From: a virus
Lineage: Duplodnaviria; Heunggongvirae; Uroviricota; Caudoviricetes
Length of the DNA stretch: 6,139 nt
Virus record (IMG/VR): IMGVR_UViG_2531839449_000026
Reading direction: 5' to 3' (one strand)
Every line of letters starts with the position of its first letter. The stretch's first letter is position 1. The position numbers were made by a program, and so were the translations under genes. This document shows positions 1 through 6,139 of the stretch, piece by piece. The notes beneath the pieces are model-generated. The model ran no database searches and was not told where the DNA came from. It saw only the letters and a list, made by a program, of their open reading frames with translations.

Positions 1-209
1 TACGCCGCTATACCATGATGATTTATCTCATACCCTTTGAACGTTACCATCTGGCGCGTAATCTCAACTTCGTTCAGGAATCCGCCATCGCATAACTGCC
101 TGGCTATTTTCGATTTGGTCTGGATTATTGGTAGTGCCTGTTCTTTCAAAGCGTATGATATTTGCGCATCCCATGCCTTTTCGAGAATGGCTAATTGTTT
201 TTTATTCAT
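1..209 (-). CDS. Hypothetical protein, partial (first 69 codons; continues past window start). Begins MNKKQLAILEKAWDAQISYALKEQ
   Basis: Own translation of minus strand: ATG at 209..207 shares one base with the helicase TGA (TGATG), no stop before position 1. AAGGAGG lies 6 nt upstream inside the helicase 3' end. Not in ORF track because it has no stop in the window. Function not recognised. Confidence 0.5.
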   Translation of the reverse strand, partial: MNKKQLAILEKAWDAQISYALKEQALPIIQTKSKIARQLCDGGFLNEVEITRQMVTFKGYEINHHGIAA

Positions 210-1645
210 CAGAATCCTCCTTTCTTCTTGGACTGCGGTTCCTCGCGTTCACGTCGGCGCATTTCAGCAGACTGTTGGTCTGTGTCATAAATAGCGCCAT
301 TTGCCTGAATGCAATACACCGTGCCGGTATTGCCATGACGATTGAGACGAAGGATTAGTTCGGTTTCACCATGTGGAACACTGTCATCAAAAGCACCTTC
401 ACGATGGATCCCCACCCAATAATCGCAATCCTGTTCAATCTGCCCTGTATCTCGTGAGTCACTTGGTAATGGGCGTTTATTGGTTCGGCTTTCCAGTGCG
501 CGGTTAAGTTGCGTCAGAAGCACAACAACGCAATCAAGCTCTTTGGCAAGGTTCTTCAGTCCTTTGGTGATCATGCCGTAAGCAAGGTCGTTGCGATCGG
601 CCTTCTCAGCGGTCATTAGTGTCAGGTAATCGACCAGAATCATGCCAACACATCCTTTTTCTCGCTTGATTCGACGGCTTTCGCTGACGATTTGAGCCAG
701 AGATAATCCCGGCGTGTCGTCGATGTAAAGCATGTCGATTTCACTCAAGCGATTGGCTGTTTCGATCGCCCTGTTGAAGTCACCATCGTAATCACCCTGA
801 TAGCCGTCATCGGCGTCATTTGTCGCCGGAAGGTAAAAAATATTCGGGTTAACACCAGACTTCTGCCCTACCAGTTTTTCCAGTATCTGATCACCTGGCA
901 TTTCAAGGCTGAACATCAGAGCGGGCTTTTTCTCATGCACTGCGCAATTGATTGCCATCTGGCTGTATAGCGTCGTTTTCCCCATCTTAGGGCGAGCGCC
1001 AATGACAAACAGAGAGCCTTTCACCAGACCTTTCGGTGACAGCATCCTGTCCAGCGATGGGATCCCTGTGCTCATTCCCCGTTGTTCGCCTGATGGGTCA
1101 AATCGCTTCTCAAGGTCGCTAACCCAGTCTTCCATGACCTCGCCAAATGAGCGAAGGCCGCGACGCGATCCGGTTTTTGCATGGTCTGTCAGTTGCGTGA
1201 AAATCGCCTGAATAGCTTCGTACTTCTGCGTCGCAGTCATTCCGTTGCGGGAATAGAGCAATTCCGTCGCTTCAGTCATGCGGTTGATGGCGTAGCGTTC
1301 CATTGCGGTTTCGCGAACCTGCATTGCATAGGCAACGATGTTTGCGGCGCTCGGCGTGTTCTTTGCGATCTCAGCGATATAAGCAAAACCGCCAACAGAC
1401 GCCGTTAACGATTTACGCTCCAGTTCATCGAAAAGCGTCAGGCCATCTACTGGCTTTTGCTCCCGGTGCATTCTGGTTATTTCTTCGAAAAGGATTTTGT
1501 GTGGTCGGCTGTAAAATGAATCGGGCTTCAGCATCGCCAGAACTTTCTGGACGCGCTCACTGCTGTCATCATCCAGAAGCAATCCACCAATCTCCGCCTG
1601 CTCTGCCTCGATGCTATGGGGCGGCGCATAAAAATTATCGGTCAT
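209..1645 (-). CDS. DnaB-family replicative DNA helicase (phage P22 gp12-type)
   Basis: Translation has Walker A GARPKMGKTT, FSLEMP, YIDD, ILVDYLTLM, LTQLNR and IEQDCD motifs that align with E. coli DnaB (recalled from memory). The ORF track extends to GTG at 1660; I prefer ATG at 1645..1643 (MTDNFYAPP), which has GAGGGTG 7 nt upstream and overlaps the O-like stop by 11 nt. Confidence 0.85.
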   Translation of the reverse strand: MTDNFYAPPHSIEAEQAEIGGLLLDDDSSERVQKVLAMLKPDSFYSRPHKILFEEITRMHREQKPVDGLTLFDELERKSLTASVGGFAYIAEIAKNTPSAANIVAYAMQVRETAMERYAINRMTEATELLYSRNGMTATQKYEAIQAIFTQLTDHAKTGSRRGLRSFGEVMEDWVSDLEKRFDPSGEQRGMSTGIPSLDRMLSPKGLVKGSLFVIGARPKMGKTTLYSQMAINCAVHEKKPALMFSLEMPGDQILEKLVGQKSGVNPNIFYLPATNDADDGYQGDYDGDFNRAIETANRLSEIDMLYIDDTPGLSLAQIVSESRRIKREKGCVGMILVDYLTLMTAEKADRNDLAYGMITKGLKNLAKELDCVVVLLTQLNRALESRTNKRPLPSDSRDTGQIEQDCDYWVGIHREGAFDDSVPHGETELILRLNRHGNTGTVYCIQANGAIYDTDQQSAEMRRREREEPQSKKKGGF

Positions 1646-2534
1646 CGTGTTCACCCTCACGAACTTTCAGGTAGGTATTGTCGTTAAGCAGGAAATCAAA
1701 TCCCTTTTTGTGCCAGACGGTTCCGCGCTGATGGTTTGGGCGCTCTTCGAACATCCATCGGCAATTTTCGCCTACGTAGCTCAAATAATTTCTCCAGTCC
1801 TGCATCGTGAACCCATGCCCGTCAAGCTGGCGGGTTATCACTCCGGCTTTGCGCCAGAACGTTCGGATCTGGTTTTTACGCTTGTCATTCAGTGCGCGGA
1901 TTTTTGGCGCTTCAGGAAGGATTTCGTGGTAAGCATCGACAACATCCTGACAGCTAACGGAAGGTTTTTTCTTGTCAGACTTTTTGTCTGCTGCGGTACT
2001 CTCTAATACGTCAGTATTAGAGATAATATTATTATATTCTTTATCTGTGGTAATTTGCTGGTAATCTGCCGGTACAGTATTGCTTGCAGGCATTGGTATT
2101 GCTGGCTTTGAGGTGGTAATTTGCTGGTAATCTGCTGGTACAAAATTTGACTGATAATCGTCATATTTCTCTACCGAGAAAACTGAGAATTTACCGTGTG
2201 AAACCCAGTCAATCATGCCGAGTTTTTTGAACTTTCTAAGCAGGTACTGAACGCGATCTGGTTTGAGTCCTGTTTCAAACGCCAGAGAGTTTCTACCGCC
2301 AAGTAGCTTCCCTCTGCCTACCAGAATTTCTCCTGCGTCAGTCATTACATACTCAGGCGTATGCTTTGCTTTGAGGATTAAGTGAACCCACAGATGCGCA
2401 GCTTCTGCGTCCTTGTAAAACGGCACATCCATAATTTTACGGTGCAGCAAGGCATACCCCTTACCGCTGCTTTGATGCGGTTGTTGTAGCCTTCTGGCCT
2501 CTCTGGCTTCGGCTAGATTAGATATGTTACTCAT
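1635..2534 (-). CDS. Replication initiation protein, lambda O-like / P22 gp18-like, with origin iterons inside the coding sequence
   Basis: 299-aa ORF immediately upstream of and overlapping the helicase. Its linker region (residues 131-164) is encoded by tandem DNA repeats next to an AT-rich tract, as in the lambda O/ori arrangement. Family assignment rests on synteny (cII - O - helicase) and architecture, not on a search. Confidence 0.75.
2005..2142. other. Putative phage origin of replication: AT-rich tract (about 2005..2046) plus two 30-bp direct repeats (2047..2076, 2113..2142), each made of two 11-bp-phased GGTAATnTGCnGGTA iterons
   Basis: Seen directly: gtggtaatttgctggtaatctgccggtaca at 2047..2076 and gtggtaatttgctggtaatctgctggtaca at 2113..2142 (one mismatch), with a degenerate ggtattgctgg at 2095..2105. 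The flanking stretch agataatattattatattctttatc is AT-rich. In the O-gene transcription direction the iterons precede the AT-rich tract, as in lambda ori. Confidence 0.6.
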
Positions 2535-2673
2535 GACCTTTCTCCTTCTGCATCAGCTTCACTTTTTCCAACTCAGCCCGGAATCGACCAGGCTGCTTGA
2601 AGCTGGACAGGAAGCGATCACGTAGTATGTGTTTGTGAATTTTGTCCTGGTAAGGACTGAGTTGTTTTGTCAT
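2527..2673 (-). CDS. Small hypothetical protein, 48 aa ([48 protein letters not shown]), between cII and the O-like gene
   Basis: Own translation; absent from the ORF track, presumably for length. AGGAG lies 5 nt upstream of the ATG at 2673..2671. The stop at 2529..2527 overlaps the O-like start at 2534, suggesting translational coupling. No family recognised. Confidence 0.45.
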
Positions 2674-2707
2674 AATTACTCCTGTGGATTGATCCAGTCT
2701 TTCTACA

Positions 2708-2986
2708 TCAGGCCTCGAAGAATTCGCCGTTCTTCGGGGCTTTTTCTTTTGTCAGCATTCTGGCTACTTTCTTAGCCAGTTCCGCCAACTCCTCGTCTTC
2801 AACACCCCATTCAAGAACAGCCAGAAGCATTCCCATTTTTGGGATGAAGCTGTCTTTCCATCGCGAAATTTGCGATTCATTAATTCCTAACGCGTCAGCA
2901 ACCTTTCGCTGGCCACGTACAGCAATTCGGTTCAGGATGTTGCTTGTAATTGCATTCGCTTTCTTGCGAGTACTTGTAAGTTGCAT
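2708..2986 (-). CDS. cII: CII-family transcriptional activator
   Basis: 92-aa product aligns with lambda CII as recalled, including the SQISRWK and [10 protein letters not shown] blocks. The 38 bp upstream (2987..3024) match my recollection of the lambda cII translation-initiation region (CATTCAATCAATTGTTATCTAAGGAAATACTTACATATG). Confidence 0.9.
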
Positions 2987-2996
2987 ATGTAAGTAT
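2964..2996 (+). promoter_or_regulatory. pRE-like CII-dependent promoter remnant: TTGC-N6-TTGT at 2964..2977, candidate -10 aagtat at 2991..2996, pointing toward the IS
   Basis: On the strand opposite cII, the tetramer repeat sits at the same distance from the cII ATG as TTGC-N6-TTGC does in lambda pRE (recalled: TTGCGTTTGTTTGCACGAACCAT before the ATG; here TTGCGAGTACTTGTAAGTTGCAT). Its normal target, cI, is missing. Confidence 0.5.
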
Positions 2997-3078
2997 TTCC
3001 TTAGATAACAATTGATTGAATGTATGAACCGCCCCGGAAATCCTGGAGACTAAACTCCCTGAGAAAGAGGTAAACAGG

Positions 3079-3405
3079 ATGACTAAAAATACTCGTTTTT
3101 CCCCCGAAGTCCGTCAGCGGGCGATTCGTATGGTTCTGGAAAGTCAGGATGAATATGACTCACAGTGGGCGGCAATTTGTTCCATTGCCCCAAAGATTGG
3201 CTGTACGCCGGAGACTCTGCGTGTCTGGGTTCGCCAGCATGAGCGGGATACCGGGGGCGGTGATGGTGGGCTCACCAGCGCTGAACGTCAGCGTCTGAAA
3301 GAGCTGGAACGTGAAAATCGTGAACTGCGCCGCAGTAACGATATCCTTCGCCAGGCTTCCGCTTATTTTGCGAAGGCGGAGTTCGACCGCCTCTGGAAAA
3401 AATGA
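3079..3405 (+). CDS. IS629-like transposase OrfA (helix-turn-helix / leucine-zipper subunit)
   Basis: 108-aa ORF with GAGG 8 nt upstream of the ATG. Ends in a leucine-zipper-like [29 protein letters not shown] typical of IS3-family OrfA. Overlaps orfB in the -1 frame. Confidence 0.9.
3397..3402 (+). other. Probable -1 programmed ribosomal frameshift site (AAAAAA run at the orfA/orfB overlap)
   Basis: Six A residues sit just before the orfA TGA (3403..3405), with orfB open in the -1 frame from 3402. IS3-family elements make an OrfAB fusion by slippage on A-rich heptamers (established); the exact heptamer here is inferred. Confidence 0.45.
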
Positions 3406-3914
3406 TGCCACTGCTGGATAAGCTGCGTGAGCAGTACGGGGTCGGACCGGTATGCAGCGAACTGCATATTGCCCCGTCAACGTATTACCATTGTCAGCAA
3501 CAGCGACATCATCCGGATAAACGCAGTGCCCGTGCGCAGCACGACGACTGGCTGAAGAGAGAGATACAGCGCGTATACGATGAAAATCATCAGGTGTACG
3601 GTGTGCGTAAAGTCTGGCGTCAGTTGTTACGGGAAGGAATCAGGGTGGCCAGATGTACAGTGGCACGTCTCATGGCGGTTATGGGACTTGCCGGTGTTCT
3701 CCGGGGTAAAAAGGTCCGTACGACCATCAGCCGGAAAGCCGTTGCCGCAGGCGACCGCGTAAACCGTCAGTTCGTGGCAGAACGACCTGACCAGCTGTGG
3801 GTGGCTGATTTTACTTACGTCAGCACATGGCAGGGCTTCGTCTATGTGGCGTTTATCATTGATGTGTTTGCCGGATACATCGTGGGGTGGCGGGTCTCAT
3901 CGTCTATGGAAACG
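3402..3914 (+). pseudogene. IS629-like transposase OrfB, 3'-truncated (only the first Asp of the DDE triad region is retained)
   Basis: Translation contains DQLWVADFTYV and then leaves the transposase sequence after SSSMET; the ORF ends at 3953 in non-IS sequence (PGRCLRQSRMAQ*). The downstream HHSDKGSQY-type and Glu-bearing regions expected in an intact IS3-family OrfB are missing. Confidence 0.8.
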
Positions 3915-3915
3915 C

Positions 3916-4485
3916 CTGGACGATGTTTGCGGCAAAGCAGGATGGCGCAATGAATACCGCGATATTCCCAACAACGGCGGCGTTGAATGCGGAATATCAA
4001 TAAAGATTGATTCCGAATGGGTAACCAAATGGGATGCTGCTGAAAACACGCAGGTAGAAGCCGTCAAAGGTGGTCGTTCAGGTGCAATGAAGCGTGCTGC
4101 CGTTCAGTGGGGAATCGGTCGGTATCTGTATAACCTTGAGGAAGGTTTCGCACAAACATCTCTCGATAAAAAGCAGGGGTGGCACAGGGCAAAACTGAAG
4201 GATGGAACAGGATTTTACTGGCTCCCTCCATCACTTCCGGGATGGGCAATCCCAGCATCAGATAACAAACCATCACCAGAAAATACCAACCAGAAATCTC
4301 CATCGGTTGACTGCGAACAAATCCTGAAAGACTTCAGCGATTATGCAGCGACAGAAACTGACAAGAAAAAACTCATCGAGCGTTATCAGCGTGACTGGCA
4401 ATTAATGGCTGGCAACGAGGAGGCGCAGGCTAAATGCGTTCAGGTGATGAACATCAGAGTTAACGAACTAAAACAGGAGGCATAA
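3916..4485 (+). pseudogene. Rad52-like (Sak-type) single-strand annealing protein gene, 5'-truncated at the IS junction
   Basis: The frame stays open from the junction to TAA at 4483..4485 and encodes ...GAMKRAAVQWGIGRYLYNLEEGF, which resembles the conserved Rad52/Sak motif (from memory). There is no in-frame ATG with an RBS near the junction. ssb starts right after it (TAAATG), as in phage recombination modules. The only available start is ATG 3844, inside IS sequence. Confidence 0.5.
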
Positions 4486-4998
4486 ATGGGACGTGGAGTT
4501 AATCGCGTAATCATTATCGGTAGATTAGGCCAAGATCCTGAGGTGCGCTATTCACCATCAGGAACGGCATTTGCAAACCTTACAGTTGCTACGTCAGAGC
4601 AATGGCGTGATAAGAAAACTGGAGAGCAAAAGGAGCAGACGGAGTGGCACCGCGTGGTAATGAGCGGAAAACTGGCAGAAATTGCCAGCGAATATCTGCG
4701 AAAAGGCTCTGAGGTTTATCTTGAAGGTAAATTGCGGACAAGAAAATGGCAGGATCAAAGCGGACAGGATAGGTTCACTACAGAAGTTATCGTGGGCGTT
4801 GGTGGAGCCATGCAAATGCTTGGTGGCAAGCAAGGAAGCAATGAACAGTCTTCACCTCAGCGAAATAACGGCCAGCAACAAAGACAGCAATCTCAGCAGC
4901 ATGGGAATTACGGCGAACCACCTATGAACTTCGACGATGAAATCCCCTTTGCACCAGTAACTCTCCCCTTCCCTCGTCACGCTATTCACGCAATTTAA
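4486..4998 (+). CDS. ssb: Single-stranded DNA-binding protein (phage SSB)
   Basis: AGGAGG 5 nt upstream of the ATG. N-terminal OB-fold signature ([22 protein letters not shown]...WHRVV), Gly/Gln-rich linker, and an acidic tip FDDEIPF. Here the tip is followed by 15 further codons ([15 protein letters not shown]) before the stop. Confidence 0.9.
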
Positions 4999-5011
4999 TC
5001 AGGAGAAAATC

Positions 5012-5305
5012 ATGCCAGCGCCTCAGTATGGTGCGGATGACCCGCGCCGCTGTTCCGGCAATTCCGTATCGGAGGTGCTGGATAAATTCAGAAAAAACTA
5101 CGCCCGGATAATGTCGCTACCGCAGGAAACGAAAGAGGAAAAGGAATTTCGCCACTGTATATGGCTTGCAGAGAAAGAAGAGCGCGAGCGAATTTACCAG
5201 ACATCAATCCGACCATTCCGCAAAGCCACATATACCCACTTCCCTGAAATTGACCCGCGCCTGCGTAATTACCGCTCACGCTATGGCGCTATCAGTAATG
5301 ACTGA
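5012..5305 (+). CDS. Hypothetical protein, 97 aa
   Basis: AGGAG 6 nt upstream of the ATG at 5012; tightly packed after ssb in the same operon direction. No recognisable family. Confidence 0.6.
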
Positions 5306-5315
5306 GGAATTTACC

Positions 5316-5483
5316 ATGAGAGGACTTGCATACAATCCCGGCATTCTTCCGGCAGAAATGATTATTCGCCAACGCGTAAAGACAATGCCATCGAGAGAGG
5401 AATTGCTTAAGAGAAATTCTTTTCCGTCAGTGAATCAAAACAAATATCTGAATGCGATGTGGCGTAAAGGAGGCAAGCAGTGA
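5316..5483 (+). CDS. Hypothetical small protein, 55 aa ([55 protein letters not shown])
   Basis: Internal start of the track ORF 5166..5483, chosen because GAGG lies 7 nt upstream of ATG 5316 and the longer form would overlap the previous gene out of frame. Its stop overlaps the next gene's GTG start (GTGA). Confidence 0.45.
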
Positions 5484-5793
5484 GCGAAATTAATTATCAG
5501 GCACTGCGTGAAAAGGCAGAGAAAGCAACTAAAGGAAGCTACATCGTAGGGCATACATCTGTTAACCAGCACGGCAATTTAACAGGAGTTTTTGTTTGCC
5601 AAAAATGGAAAGGAGAACCCGGTGGTGTGATTGCGGAATGTCATGTTAACTGCCTGGTTGAAACAGATGTTCAGGCTTATGCAAACGCTGAATTTATTGC
5701 TGCCTTTAATCCAAATGTTGCGCTGGCGCTTCTGGATGAACGGGAAAGAAACCAGCAATACATCAAACGCCGCGACCAGGAGAACGAGGATAT
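5480..5793 (+). pseudogene. Ead/Ea22-like phage early protein gene, interrupted by IS insertion at 5794
   Basis: GTG start with AAGGAGG upstream. The N-terminus [19 protein letters not shown] matches my recollection of Ead/Ea22-like proteins from enterobacterial prophages. After ...QENEDIE the frame runs into the IS inverted repeat ([14 protein letters not shown], stop at 5840..5842). Confidence 0.55.
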
Positions 5794-6139
5794 TGAACCG
5801 CCCCGGAAATCCTGGAGACTAAACTCCCTGAGAAAGAGGTAAACAGGATGACTAAAAATACTCGTTTTTCCCCCGAAGTCCGTCAGCGGGCGATTCGTAT
5901 GGTTCTGGAAAGTCAGGATGAATATGACTCACAGTGGGCGGCAATTTGTTCCATTGCCCCAAAGATTGGCTGTACGCCGGAGACTCTGCGTGTCTGGGTT
6001 CGCCAGCATGAGCGGGATACCGGGGGCGGTGATGGTGGGCTCACCAGCGCTGAACGTCAGCGTCTGAAAGAGCTGGAACGTGAAAATCGTGAACTGCGCC
6101 GCAGTAACGATATCCTTCGCCAGGCTTCCGCTTATTTTG
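5794..6139 (+). mobile_element. Second IS629/IS1203-like copy, left end (continues past window end), same orientation as the first
   Basis: 346 bp identical to 3025..3370, beginning TGAACCGCCCCGG. Confidence 0.85.
5848..6139 (+). CDS. IS629-like transposase OrfA, partial (3' end beyond window)
   Basis: Same sequence as orfA at 3079; the ATG at 5848 is 54 nt from the IS end, as in copy 1. Confidence 0.85.

What the first reader, a model, noticed from the sequence alone, without database searches (positions are those of the whole stretch)
2987..3916. Prophage immunity region replaced by a truncated IS629: cII abuts the IS and the recombination gene is decapitated
In lambdoid phages the cII-O-helicase operon (PR) and the recombination/ssb/ead operon (PL) diverge from an immunity region holding cro, OR/PR, cI, PL/OL, N and usually cIII/kil. 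Here lambda-like sequence ends 38 bp upstream of cII at 3024. An IS629 left end follows, the IS is cut off inside orfB at about 3914, and the next sequence is already the middle of a Rad52-like gene. So the repressor, cro, both early promoters and N are missing. The remnant therefore cannot establish or maintain lysogeny, and the replication genes and ori have lost PR. The missing IS right end means a second deletion event occurred, not a simple transposition.
Basis: partly seen in the sequence, partly recalled or inferred. Interest (0 to 1): 0.6.

Follow-up and report, generated by a model that had tools for sequence, protein, structure and literature searches.

The report
Truncated IS629 scar in Stx1 prophage
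This is the already published cryptic Shiga-toxin-1 prophage CP-1639 of E. coli O111, whose roughly 5-kb control region (repressor, cro, early promoters, N) is replaced by the first 890 bases of insertion sequence IS629, so it is a real but ordinary and already known genetic scar.

Summary
Window 3025-3914 is nucleotides 1-890 of the 1310-bp IS629/IS1203, with 0 mismatches to full copies. Its left end lies 38 bp upstream of cII, and its broken end is fused to a Rad52/Erf-type recombinase gene. The fusion lies in a 6-bp overlap, GAAACG (3909-3914), shared by IS629 orfB and the intact recombinase gene. That fits a second, microhomology-mediated deletion. One correction: the recombinase is not cut in the middle; it has lost about 45 of its 235 codons. 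In relatives that carry both flanks, the missing interval is about 5.0 kb and holds tR1, nutR, cro, OR/PR, cI, OL/PL, nutL, N, ral, cIII and kil. No homologue of these genes was found anywhere in the prophage. The arrangement is not an assembly artefact. Both junctions occur in 32 complete O111-lineage genomes each, and in the Sanger record AJ304858 (cryptic Stx1 prophage CP-1639, Creuzburg et al. 2005). The window differs from that record at 4 of 5793 bases. What this work adds is the exact junction anatomy and evidence of continuing IS-driven decay around the orphan IS end in O111 strains. Interest is low.

The parts
209..1645 (-). DnaB-like replicative helicase gene (the 'P' position of the replication module), intact
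   Evidence: Pfam DnaB and DnaB_C. RefSeq WP_000131492.1. Annotated P in CP-1639.
1635..2534 (-). O-type replication initiator gene, intact. It contains the iteron origin at about 2047-2147.
   Evidence: ORF of 299 aa. Direct repeats D2 at 2047-2081 and 2113-2147. These correspond to the annotated rep_origin of HK620. Annotated O in CP-1639.
2527..2673 (-). Small DUF2740 gene (hkaW / P22 orf48 homologue)
   Evidence: RefSeq annotation and HK620/P22 matches.
2708..2986 (-). cII transcriptional activator gene, intact
   Evidence: Pfam Phage_CII positions 1-91 of 91, E = 1.8e-42. 98.9% identical to Sf6 gene 41 protein.
2963..3002 (+). Sequence homologous to the cII-dependent pRE promoter of HK620. 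It now points into the IS.
   Evidence: HK620 annotation, pRE at L004 7437-7476, transferred with an offset of 4474. Assigned by homology only; activity not tested.
2987..3024 (.). Last 38 bp of phage sequence upstream of cII. The sequence that would continue into tR1, nutR and cro is cut here.
   Evidence: Identical to Sf6 up to 3024, or 3026 if the shared TG is counted. Sf6 then continues into tR1, nutR and cro.
3025..3914 (+). IS629/IS1203 nt 1-890 of 1310. The left inverted repeat is present; the right 420 bp and the right inverted repeat are missing.
   Evidence: 0 mismatches to a full copy. RefSeq pseudogene 'IS3-like element IS1203 family transposase, missing C-terminus'. IS629 inverted repeat annotated in CP-1639 at the equivalent of 3025-3049.
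3079..3405 (+). IS629 orfA, intact
   Evidence: 108-aa ORF. Pfam HTH_Tnp_1 positions 1-74 of 75.
3360..3476 (+). IS3-family programmed-frameshift element (ALIL pseudoknot)
   Evidence: Rfam RF01497, 121.5 bits, full length.
3402..3914 (+). IS629 orfB, truncated after codon 171 of 296. The reading frame runs on out of frame into recombinase sequence, to a stop at 3953.
   Evidence: Pfam rve positions 2-48 of 102, against 2-101 in the full copy. ORF 3402-3953.
3909..3914 (.). Deletion joint: 6-bp microhomology GAAACG shared by IS629 nt 885-890 and recombinase gene nt 132-137
   Evidence: Base-by-base comparison with intact genes of Sf6 and E. coli 09-00049. Intact E. coli Rad52 genes align from window 3909.
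3915..4485 (+). Rad52/Rad22-type (Erf-like) single-strand annealing protein gene lacking about 45 N-terminal codons. A chimeric ORF at 3844-4485 starts inside the IS.
   Evidence: Pfam Rad52_Rad22 positions 40-153 of 153. RefSeq pseudogene 'missing N-terminus'. CP-1639 depositors annotated the chimeric ORF as erf.
4486..4998 (+). Phage ssb gene, intact
   Evidence: RefSeq WP_000532424.1.
5012..5305 (+). Anti-RecBCD gene (P22 abc2 type), intact
   Evidence: Pfam Anti-RecBCD_p2 positions 1-97 of 97.
5316..5483 (+). Small DUF2737 gene
   Evidence: RefSeq annotation.
5480..5793 (+). ead/Ea22-like gene, interrupted at 5793
   Evidence: Pfam Ead_Ea22 positions 1-94 of 139. In other O111 genomes the gene continues to the equivalent of 5914.
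5794..6139 (+). Second IS629 left end (nt 1-346). It has the same orientation as the truncated copy and runs off the window.
   Evidence: 346 of 346 nt identical to IS629. This junction was found in none of 5426 complete E. coli genomes.

Best explanation
The window is the early region of the cryptic Stx1a prophage CP-1639, carried at ssrA by E. coli O111:H8/NM.

Proposed history (inferred): an IS629 inserted 38 bp upstream of cII, between the cII start/pRE and tR1, with its transposase genes pointing towards cro. A later deletion then joined IS nt 890 to nt 132-138 of the Rad52/Erf-type recombinase gene at a 6-bp microhomology (GAAACG). That deletion removed the right 420 bp of the IS and about 5 kb of phage DNA carrying tR1, nutR, cro, OR/PR/PRM, cI, OL/PL, nutL, N, ral, cIII and kil.

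Consequences (inferred): the prophage has no repressor, no SOS-responsive switch, no early promoters and no N antitermination. The intact cII-O-helicase module and the ori have no known promoter. The prophage cannot enter a lytic programme by itself. Other lesions in the same prophage (int, lysis genes, the gpU tail gene) point the same way. stx1AB keeps its own upstream region. Published work shows that region contains a Fur-regulated promoter independent of phage induction, so the toxin genes remain expressible from a fixed chromosomal locus.

The enzyme behind the deletion is not established. Microhomology-mediated end joining after an IS-end break, possibly promoted by the IS-excision enhancer IEE reported in O111:H8, is the most likely route.

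Shown here: the anatomy, the junctions, the absence of the immunity genes, the lineage-wide distribution, and the identity to CP-1639. Inferred: the order of events, the enzymology, and the transcriptional consequences.
For: - **IS identity and truncation point:**
- **Left junction:** it maps between the cII start and tR1 by comparison with Sf6 and HK620.
- **Right junction:** it lies in the 6-bp GAAACG.
- **Size of the missing interval:** 5011-5019 bp in Sf6 coordinates, with a similar gene set in E. coli 09-00049.
- **Absence of the immunity genes:** no cI, cro, N, cIII, kil or ral homologues in 45.8 kb of prophage context or in the CP-1639 record, with positive controls. None are annotated.
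- **Distribution:** the same two junctions occur in 32 complete genomes each, all of O111 type where a serotype is given.
- **Identity to CP-1639:** the window differs from AJ304858.2 at 4 of 5793 nt. A 2026 preprint calls the same prophage cryptic and CP-1639-like, inserted at ssrA, with three IS629 elements.
- **Other lesions in the prophage:** IS in gpU, a lysozyme remnant, a truncated integrase.
- **stx1 upstream region:** it is intact and has a Fur-box-like element. Fur-dependent, induction-independent Stx1 expression is described in PMC8065619 and PMC5552940.
- **IEE:** its microhomology end-joining activity on 4- and 6-nt overlaps and its presence in O111:H8 are reported in PMC9943667. 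IEE-associated deletions next to IS629 are described.
Against: - The ancestor with a complete IS629 plus an intact immunity region was not found, so the two-step order is inferred rather than observed.
- Published IEE-associated events usually remove the whole IS. Here 890 bp of it remain, so IEE involvement is only a possibility.
- No expression data were available. The promoter scan is a crude consensus test, and it also failed to pick up pRE and the IS promoter.
- Only four immunity types were used in the tblastn screen, so a very divergent repressor could in principle be missed, although none is annotated.
- The original 2005 paper could not be read. Its exact statements about this junction are unknown to me.
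Confidence: 0.88

Rival explanations
1. Assembly artefact. The cII/IS and IS/recombinase joins are chimeric, produced by collapsing IS629 repeats, and the real genome has an intact immunity region.
For: IS629 is present in dozens of copies per genome. The window ends inside a second IS copy, and the junction at 5794 is found in no complete genome. That part could therefore be strain-specific or doubtful.
Against: Both junctions of the truncated copy occur as uninterrupted 161-nt matches at 100% identity in 31-32 independently assembled complete genomes. They also occur in the Sanger clone-based record AJ304858.2. A collapsed repeat would not give a joint at IS nt 890 with a 6-bp microhomology.
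Confidence: 0.01
2. A single-step, transposition-coupled event. During an aberrant copy-out reaction, an IS629 end or its replication primer switched to a distant site (the 'sloppy strand transfer' or strand-switch models). The IS truncation and the 5-kb loss would then be one event, not an insertion followed much later by an unrelated deletion.
For: Models of this kind are proposed for IEE-enhanced IS629 deletions, and for ISApl1 loss at 2-4 bp microhomologies, some of which intrude into the IS. The joint is a 6-bp microhomology. Further deletions in sister strains end at or within 2 bp of the same IS left end.
Against: The IS must still have inserted next to cII first, so at least two steps are needed. 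The published events mostly remove the IS rather than leave two thirds of it. Nothing in the sequence distinguishes this route from ordinary RecA-independent illegitimate recombination.
Confidence: 0.3
3. The full-length IS629 seen at the same cII junction in strains RM9131 and RM9975 is the ancestral state, and the truncated copy derives from it.
For: RM9131 has a complete IS629 at exactly the same left junction. A complete IS is the expected first step.
Against: In RM9131 the IS right end is joined to window position ~4298, so that strain retains less of the recombinase gene than the window does (3915 onwards). The window state therefore cannot be derived from it. The simplest history is the reverse. 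A new IS629 inserted at ~4298 in the same orientation and recombined with the truncated copy, which restored a full IS and deleted 3915-4297. The window's own second copy at 5794 is exactly such a precursor configuration. An independent adjacent deletion from a common full-IS ancestor cannot be excluded.
Confidence: 0.05
4. The remnant is not just a scar but a rewired expression unit. The IS629 promoter, and the cII-dependent pRE upstream of it, would now transcribe through orfA and orfB' into the chimeric recombinase ORF, ssb and the anti-RecBCD gene, giving the host constitutive expression of these functions.
For: pRE-homologous sequence, the IS genes and the ssb/abc2 genes all lie on the same strand. 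Only one weak terminator-like site lies between them, at 3792-3807. ssb and abc2 are intact. An ATG at 3844 opens a 213-aa chimeric ORF that the CP-1639 depositors annotated as erf.
Against: There are no expression data, and the consensus scan found no promoter. The same genes are lost in several sister strains (RM9131 partly, OkiPb01689 entirely), which argues against selection for them. The O111 copies are too similar (99.9%) to test for purifying selection.
Confidence: 0.1

Closest known systems
Cryptic Stx1 prophage CP-1639 of E. coli O111:H- strain 1639/77 (GenBank AJ304858.2; Creuzburg et al., Microbiology 2005, 151:941)
   Same: Essentially the same sequence: 4 differences in 5793 nt. 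It has the same cII/IS629 and IS629/erf junctions and the same gene order. The record annotates cII, one IS629 inverted repeat, orfA, a shortened orfB (552 nt instead of 891), erf and ssb, with no cI, cro or N.
   Different: The window has an additional IS629 left end at 5794, inside the ead gene. This is absent from CP-1639 and from all complete genomes searched. The GenBank record annotates the chimeric 213-aa ORF as 'erf' without flagging it as truncated.
IS629 / IS1203 (IS3 family)
   Same: 100% identical over 890 nt to full 1310-bp copies. It has the left inverted repeat, orfA, the ALIL frameshift pseudoknot and the start of the orfB DDE domain.
   Different: It lacks nt 891-1310: more than half of the rve catalytic core and the right inverted repeat. 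It cannot encode transposase or move as a unit. It is an orphan left end.
Early regions of intact P22-like and lambdoid phages Sf6 and HK620, and the E. coli 09-00049 prophage
   Same: The flanks are homologous: cII/DUF2740/O/helicase on one side and Rad52-type recombinase/ssb/abc2/ead on the other, diverging from a central region.
   Different: In those phages 5.0-5.2 kb lie between the two points: tR1, nutR, cro, operators and promoters, cI, N, ral, cIII and kil. All of this is absent here.
IS629-associated genomic deletions and IEE-promoted microhomology end joining in EHEC (Kusumoto et al. 2011; Calvo et al. 2023, PMC9943667)
   Same: A deletion of several kb next to an IS629, with a joint at a 6-nt microhomology. 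That is the overlap length at which IEE is most active in vitro. The lineage is reported to carry IEE.
   Different: The described events typically excise the IS completely or delete outward from it. Here one endpoint lies 420 bp inside the IS. No test of IEE or transposase dependence was possible.
Other 'grounded' or defective Stx and lambdoid prophages of EHEC (for example the defective prophage pool of O157 Sakai)
   Same: Prophage inactivation by IS insertion and deletion, with retention of virulence cargo.
   Different: The specific lesion here removes the whole immunity and early-control region rather than integration or morphogenesis genes alone.

Membership tests
IS629/IS1203 (IS3 family) | Near-identity of nucleotide sequence to reference copies | tested here: met
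   890 of 890 nt identical to a full 1310-bp copy in the same prophage.
IS629/IS1203 (IS3 family) | Two terminal inverted repeats (TGAACCGCCCCGG...) | tested here: not met
   The left repeat is present at 3025. The right repeat is absent because the element stops at nt 890. It is a fragment, not a complete element.
IS629/IS1203 (IS3 family) | orfA (HTH) plus a -1 frameshift signal plus orfB with a complete DDE (rve) domain | tested here: not met
   orfA is complete and the ALIL pseudoknot is present. orfB keeps only rve positions 2-48 of 102.
IS629/IS1203 (IS3 family) | Short target-site duplication flanking the element | not testable with these tools
   The right end and its flank have been deleted.
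Cryptic Stx1 prophage CP-1639 | Sequence identity and the same rearrangement junctions as AJ304858.2 | tested here: met
   4 mismatches in 5793 nt, with identical cII/IS and IS/erf joints.
Cryptic Stx1 prophage CP-1639 | Carries stx1AB and is integrated at ssrA | tested here: inconclusive
   The window does not reach stx1 or ssrA. In genomes matching the window at 99.9-100%, stxA1a/stxB1a lie about 5.6 kb beyond window position 1, to its left. ssrA is annotated in the CP-1639 record. The window's own source genome was not identified.
Functional lambdoid immunity region | cI-type repressor, cro, OR/PR and OL/PL, and N with nut sites between cII and the recombination genes | tested here: not met
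   Only IS629 sequence lies between cII and the recombinase. No homologues were found in the prophage by tblastn, and none are annotated.
Lambda CII family activator | Full-length Phage_CII domain | tested here: met
   Pfam PF05269 positions 1-91 of 91, E = 1.8e-42.
Rad52/Rad22-type phage single-strand annealing protein | Complete Rad52_Rad22 domain in an ORF with its native start | tested here: not met
   The profile is matched from position 40 only, against position 7 in Sf6 gene 28. About 45 of 235 codons are missing. RefSeq marks it as a pseudogene.
IEE-promoted IS629 deletion | Joint at a short microhomology | tested here: met
   6-bp GAAACG. IEE extends 4- and 6-nt overlaps in vitro.
IEE-promoted IS629 deletion | Dependence on IEE and on active transposase | not testable with these tools
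   This needs genetics. The literature only reports that IEE occurs in O111:H8. The IEE gene was not looked for in these genomes.

The most novel reading that the evidence does not exclude
The orphan IS629 left end is not inert. It may still be recognised in trans by transposase (and IEE) from the other IS629 copies, and may act as a seed for stepwise erosion of the prophage. Sister O111 genomes show several such changes: deletions ending at or 2 bp from this end (UTAK-8, OkiPb01689), a nested IS629 (2013C-3250), restoration of a full IS by recombination with a newly inserted copy (RM9131, RM9975), and inversions (7-32 9A, 2009C-3675). If so, the locus would be a natural time series of one-ended IS activity and of how a toxin prophage is whittled down while stx1 is kept.
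Probability: 0.3. Interest if true: 0.35.

Novelty: already known. Interest (0 to 1): 0.15.

Why it matters
The lesion explains why the Stx1 prophage of the O111 lineage is a fixed chromosomal island rather than an inducible phage. It has no repressor or SOS switch, no early promoters and no N. Toxin output should therefore depend on the iron/Fur-controlled stx1 promoter rather than on prophage induction, and the toxin genes should not spread by themselves.

This bears on risk assessment, for example whether antibiotics that trigger the SOS response would raise Stx1 in these strains. It also bears on using this locus as a stable lineage marker. All of this was in essence established for CP-1639 in 2005.

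The new value here is limited to the base-level junction anatomy (6-bp microhomology, IS nt 890, recombinase codon ~45) and a catalogue of further IS-linked variants in complete genomes.

Tried and rejected
- **Original paper:** Creuzburg et al. 2005 (doi 10.1099/mic.0.27632-0) is not held. What it says about this junction rests on the GenBank record and on my memory of the abstract.
- **Ooka et al. 2009 (PMC2765283):** this paper on IS629-adjacent deletions is not held.
- **Other O111 papers:** two further papers added nothing specific about this prophage's early region.
- **Source of the 5794 junction:** a search for the ead/IS629 junction found no complete E. coli genome with it. The apparent 100% matches of H1 and H2 were joins of separate IS pieces.
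- **Promoter scan:** the consensus scan of 2650-4550 found nothing on either strand. This is uninformative, because it also missed the activator-dependent pRE and the IS promoter.
- **Fur box:** the consensus with up to 3 mismatches did not hit the stx1 promoter. The element seen by eye has 5 mismatches by my count.
- **phi296 as an intact reference:** this Stx phage has the closest cII region (98.3%), but it carries a RecT/exonuclease module rather than Rad52 and could not be used to map the right endpoint. HK620 likewise lacks the Rad52-type gene.
- **ECP1 gene start:** the annotated ECP1 start suggested that only 14 codons were lost. I rejected this because the ORF clearly extends upstream, and Sf6 and E. 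coli 09-00049 give 235 codons.
- **Rejected readings:** assembly artefact, and RM9131-type as ancestor (see the rival explanations).
Full report
**What is in the window**

ORF listing and domain searches give a lambdoid early region split into two divergent arms.

- On the minus strand: a DnaB-like helicase (209-1645), an O-type initiator with iterons at about 2047-2147 (1635-2534), a small DUF2740 gene, and a full-length cII (2708-2986).
- On the plus strand: a Rad52/Rad22-type recombinase fragment (to 4485), ssb (4486-4998), a P22 abc2-type anti-RecBCD gene (5012-5305), a DUF2737 gene, and an ead/Ea22 gene (from 5480).
- Between the arms lies only IS sequence.

**Checking the observation**

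Window 3025-3914 is identical, with 0 mismatches in 890 nt, to nt 1-890 of a complete 1310-bp IS629/IS1203 copy elsewhere in the same prophage.

- orfA is complete. The IS3-type ALIL frameshift pseudoknot is found by Rfam at 3360-3476.
- orfB stops after rve profile position 48 of 102, so the transposase catalytic core and the right inverted repeat are gone.
- On the left, the phage sequence is identical to phage Sf6 up to 3024, 38 bp upstream of the cII start codon. Sf6 then continues into tR1, nutR and cro, while the window continues into the IS. The TG at 3025-3026 is common to both.
- On the right, IS-specific sequence ends at 3908 and recombinase-specific sequence begins at 3915. The hexamer GAAACG (3909-3914) is present both at IS nt 885-890 and at nt 132-137 of the intact recombinase genes of Sf6 and E. 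coli 09-00049.

The one correction concerns the recombinase. Intact homologues have 235 codons, and about 45 are missing. The gene has lost its head, not its first half.

**What was lost**

In Sf6, which carries close homologues of both flanks, the interval between the two breakpoints is 5011-5019 bp. It contains tR1, nutR, cro, OR with PR/PRM, the repressor, OL/PL, nutL, N, ral, cIII, kil and several small genes. A prophage in E. coli 09-00049 with a 98.9% identical recombinase segment shows a comparable 5.2-kb set.

tblastn with cI, cro, N, cIII, kil and ral proteins from HK620, Sf6, 09-00049 and phi296 found no match in 45.8 kb around the locus in an O111 chromosome, nor in the 50-kb CP-1639 record. 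The cII and Rad52 controls both matched. Neither RefSeq nor the original depositors annotate any such gene.

**Not an artefact, and where it comes from**

- The whole window up to 5793 matches 27 complete E. coli genomes at 99.8-100% identity, over at least 80% of the query.
- A 161-nt probe across the left junction is found uninterrupted in 32 genomes, and a probe across the right junction in 32 genomes. All are O111:H8/NM/H2 where a serotype is given.
- The best phage-database hit on both flanks is AJ304858.2, 'Bacteriophage CP-1639 and chromosomal integration site', from E. coli O111:H- 1639/77. The window differs from it at 4 of 5793 positions.
- That record already annotates cII, a single IS629 inverted repeat, orfA, a shortened orfB, erf and ssb in this order.
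- A 2026 preprint on an O111:H8 strain describes the same element as a cryptic Stx1a prophage at ssrA, at least 99% identical to CP-1639, with three IS629 elements and several pseudogenes.
- In the matching genomes, stx1AB lies about 5.6 kb to the left of window position 1. The prophage also has an IS629 in the gpU tail gene, only a remnant of the lysozyme gene, and a truncated integrase next to another IS629.

**How it most likely arose**

A complete IS cannot lose one end by transposition, so at least two events are needed: insertion next to cII, then a deletion with one endpoint inside the IS. The 6-bp microhomology at the joint is the signature of illegitimate, microhomology-mediated joining.

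EHEC lineages, including O111:H8, are reported to carry the IS-excision enhancer IEE. This polymerase extends ends paired through 4- and 6-nt microhomologies, and it is associated with deletions from a few bp to more than 40 kb next to IS629. It is therefore a plausible agent. Published IEE events usually remove the IS, however, and I could not test dependence, so this step is inference. The predicted intermediate (full IS plus intact immunity region) was not found.

**How it works now (inference from established lambdoid biology)**

- With cI, cro, PR, PL, N and both nut sites gone, there is nothing to repress and nothing to induce.
- cII, O, the helicase and the ori are intact but have lost the only known promoter and the transcriptional activation of ori.
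- Q downstream would not be reached by early transcription.
- stx1AB keeps its own upstream region, with a Fur-box-like element. The literature states that this promoter gives iron-regulated Stx1 expression independent of phage induction.
- The prophage is thus a fixed toxin island.
- A consensus scan found no replacement promoter in 2650-4550, but the test is weak.
- On the plus strand, the pRE-homologous sequence and the IS genes point into the recombinase remnant, ssb and abc2. Read-through is possible but untested.

**Beyond the finding**

The window has a second IS629 left end at 5794-6139, in the same orientation, interrupting ead. This junction exists in no complete genome searched.

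Sister strains show that the region keeps changing.

- RM9131 and RM9975 have a full-length IS629 at the same cII junction, joined to window position ~4298. Because they retain less of the recombinase gene, this state cannot be ancestral to the window. It is best explained by a new insertion followed by recombination with the truncated copy. That is the configuration the window's two copies would allow.
- UTAK-8 has lost window ~1018-3022, ending 2 bp outside the IS left end.
- OkiPb01689 has lost everything from lar to cII on the left, and ssb to ead on the right.
- 2013C-3250 has a complete IS629 nested in orfA of the truncated copy.
- In 7-32 9A and 2009C-3675 the two junctions are inverted or 700 kb apart.

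**Verdict**

The feature is real, lineage-wide and mechanistically ordinary: IS insertion plus microhomology deletion leading to prophage grounding. It corresponds to a prophage published and deposited two decades ago.

- **Novelty:** already known.
- **Interest:** low (0.15).
- **Most novel reading still open:** the orphan IS end remains an active seed of erosion. Probability about 0.3, with modest interest if true.

Noticed in passing
window 5794-6139: A second IS629 left end (346 of 346 nt identical), in the same orientation as the truncated copy, interrupts the ead/Ea22 gene after 5793. The junction is absent from CP-1639 and from all 5426 complete E. coli genomes searched. It is either a strain-specific new insertion or the edge of an assembly. 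Together with 3025-3914 it forms a direct repeat that could delete 3915-5793 by recombination.
   Followed up: partly
L010 (E. coli RM9131) 3325-4640; also RM9975: A full-length IS629 sits at the identical cII junction, with its right end joined to window position ~4298. The truncated IS seems to have been 'healed' and a further 383 bp of the recombinase remnant lost. This is most simply explained by a new same-orientation insertion plus IS-IS homologous recombination.
   Followed up: partly
L011 (UTAK-8) 4120-4260; L013 (OkiPb01689) 3040-5780: Further deletions abut the orphan IS left end. UTAK-8 lacks cII, DUF2740, O and the helicase N-terminus, and its joint lies 2 bp outside the IS end. 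OkiPb01689 lacks everything from lar to cII. It also has a full IS629 inside the recombinase remnant, followed directly by the truncated integrase.
   Followed up: partly
L012 (2013C-3250) 3635-5783: A complete IS629 is nested inside orfA of the truncated IS629 (an IS within an IS remnant), so the two junctions are 2203 bp apart instead of 890.
   Followed up: no
NZ_CP077585.1 (7-32 9A) and NZ_CP077531.1 (2009C-3675): The cII/IS and IS/recombinase junctions lie on opposite strands in 7-32 9A, and about 700 kb apart in 2009C-3675. This indicates inversions or large rearrangements with a breakpoint inside the truncated IS.
   Followed up: no
window 3844-4485: A 213-aa chimeric ORF starts at an ATG inside IS629 (an alternative frame of orfB) and continues in frame into the recombinase remnant. 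The CP-1639 GenBank record annotates exactly this ORF as 'erf', without marking it as truncated. RefSeq calls it a pseudogene.
   Followed up: partly
L001 2475-3784, 12673-12753, 16114-16837, 27702-28670; L002 14892-15325: The same prophage carries other lesions: IS629 in the gpU tail gene, only an 81-bp lysozyme remnant, a frameshifted KilAC antirepressor, and an integrase truncated by another IS629. Strain E2855 also has a frameshifted Q antiterminator.
   Followed up: no
window 1335-1348 and 3920-3933: An exact 14-nt direct repeat (ACGATGTTTGCGGC) is shared by the helicase gene region and the recombinase remnant just past the deletion joint. It is probably chance.
   Followed up: no
L005 (phage ECP1) 3722-4333: The annotated start of the ECP1 Erf-like gene looks too far downstream. 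The reading frame and its homology to Sf6 gene 28 extend upstream of the annotated ATG.
   Followed up: partly
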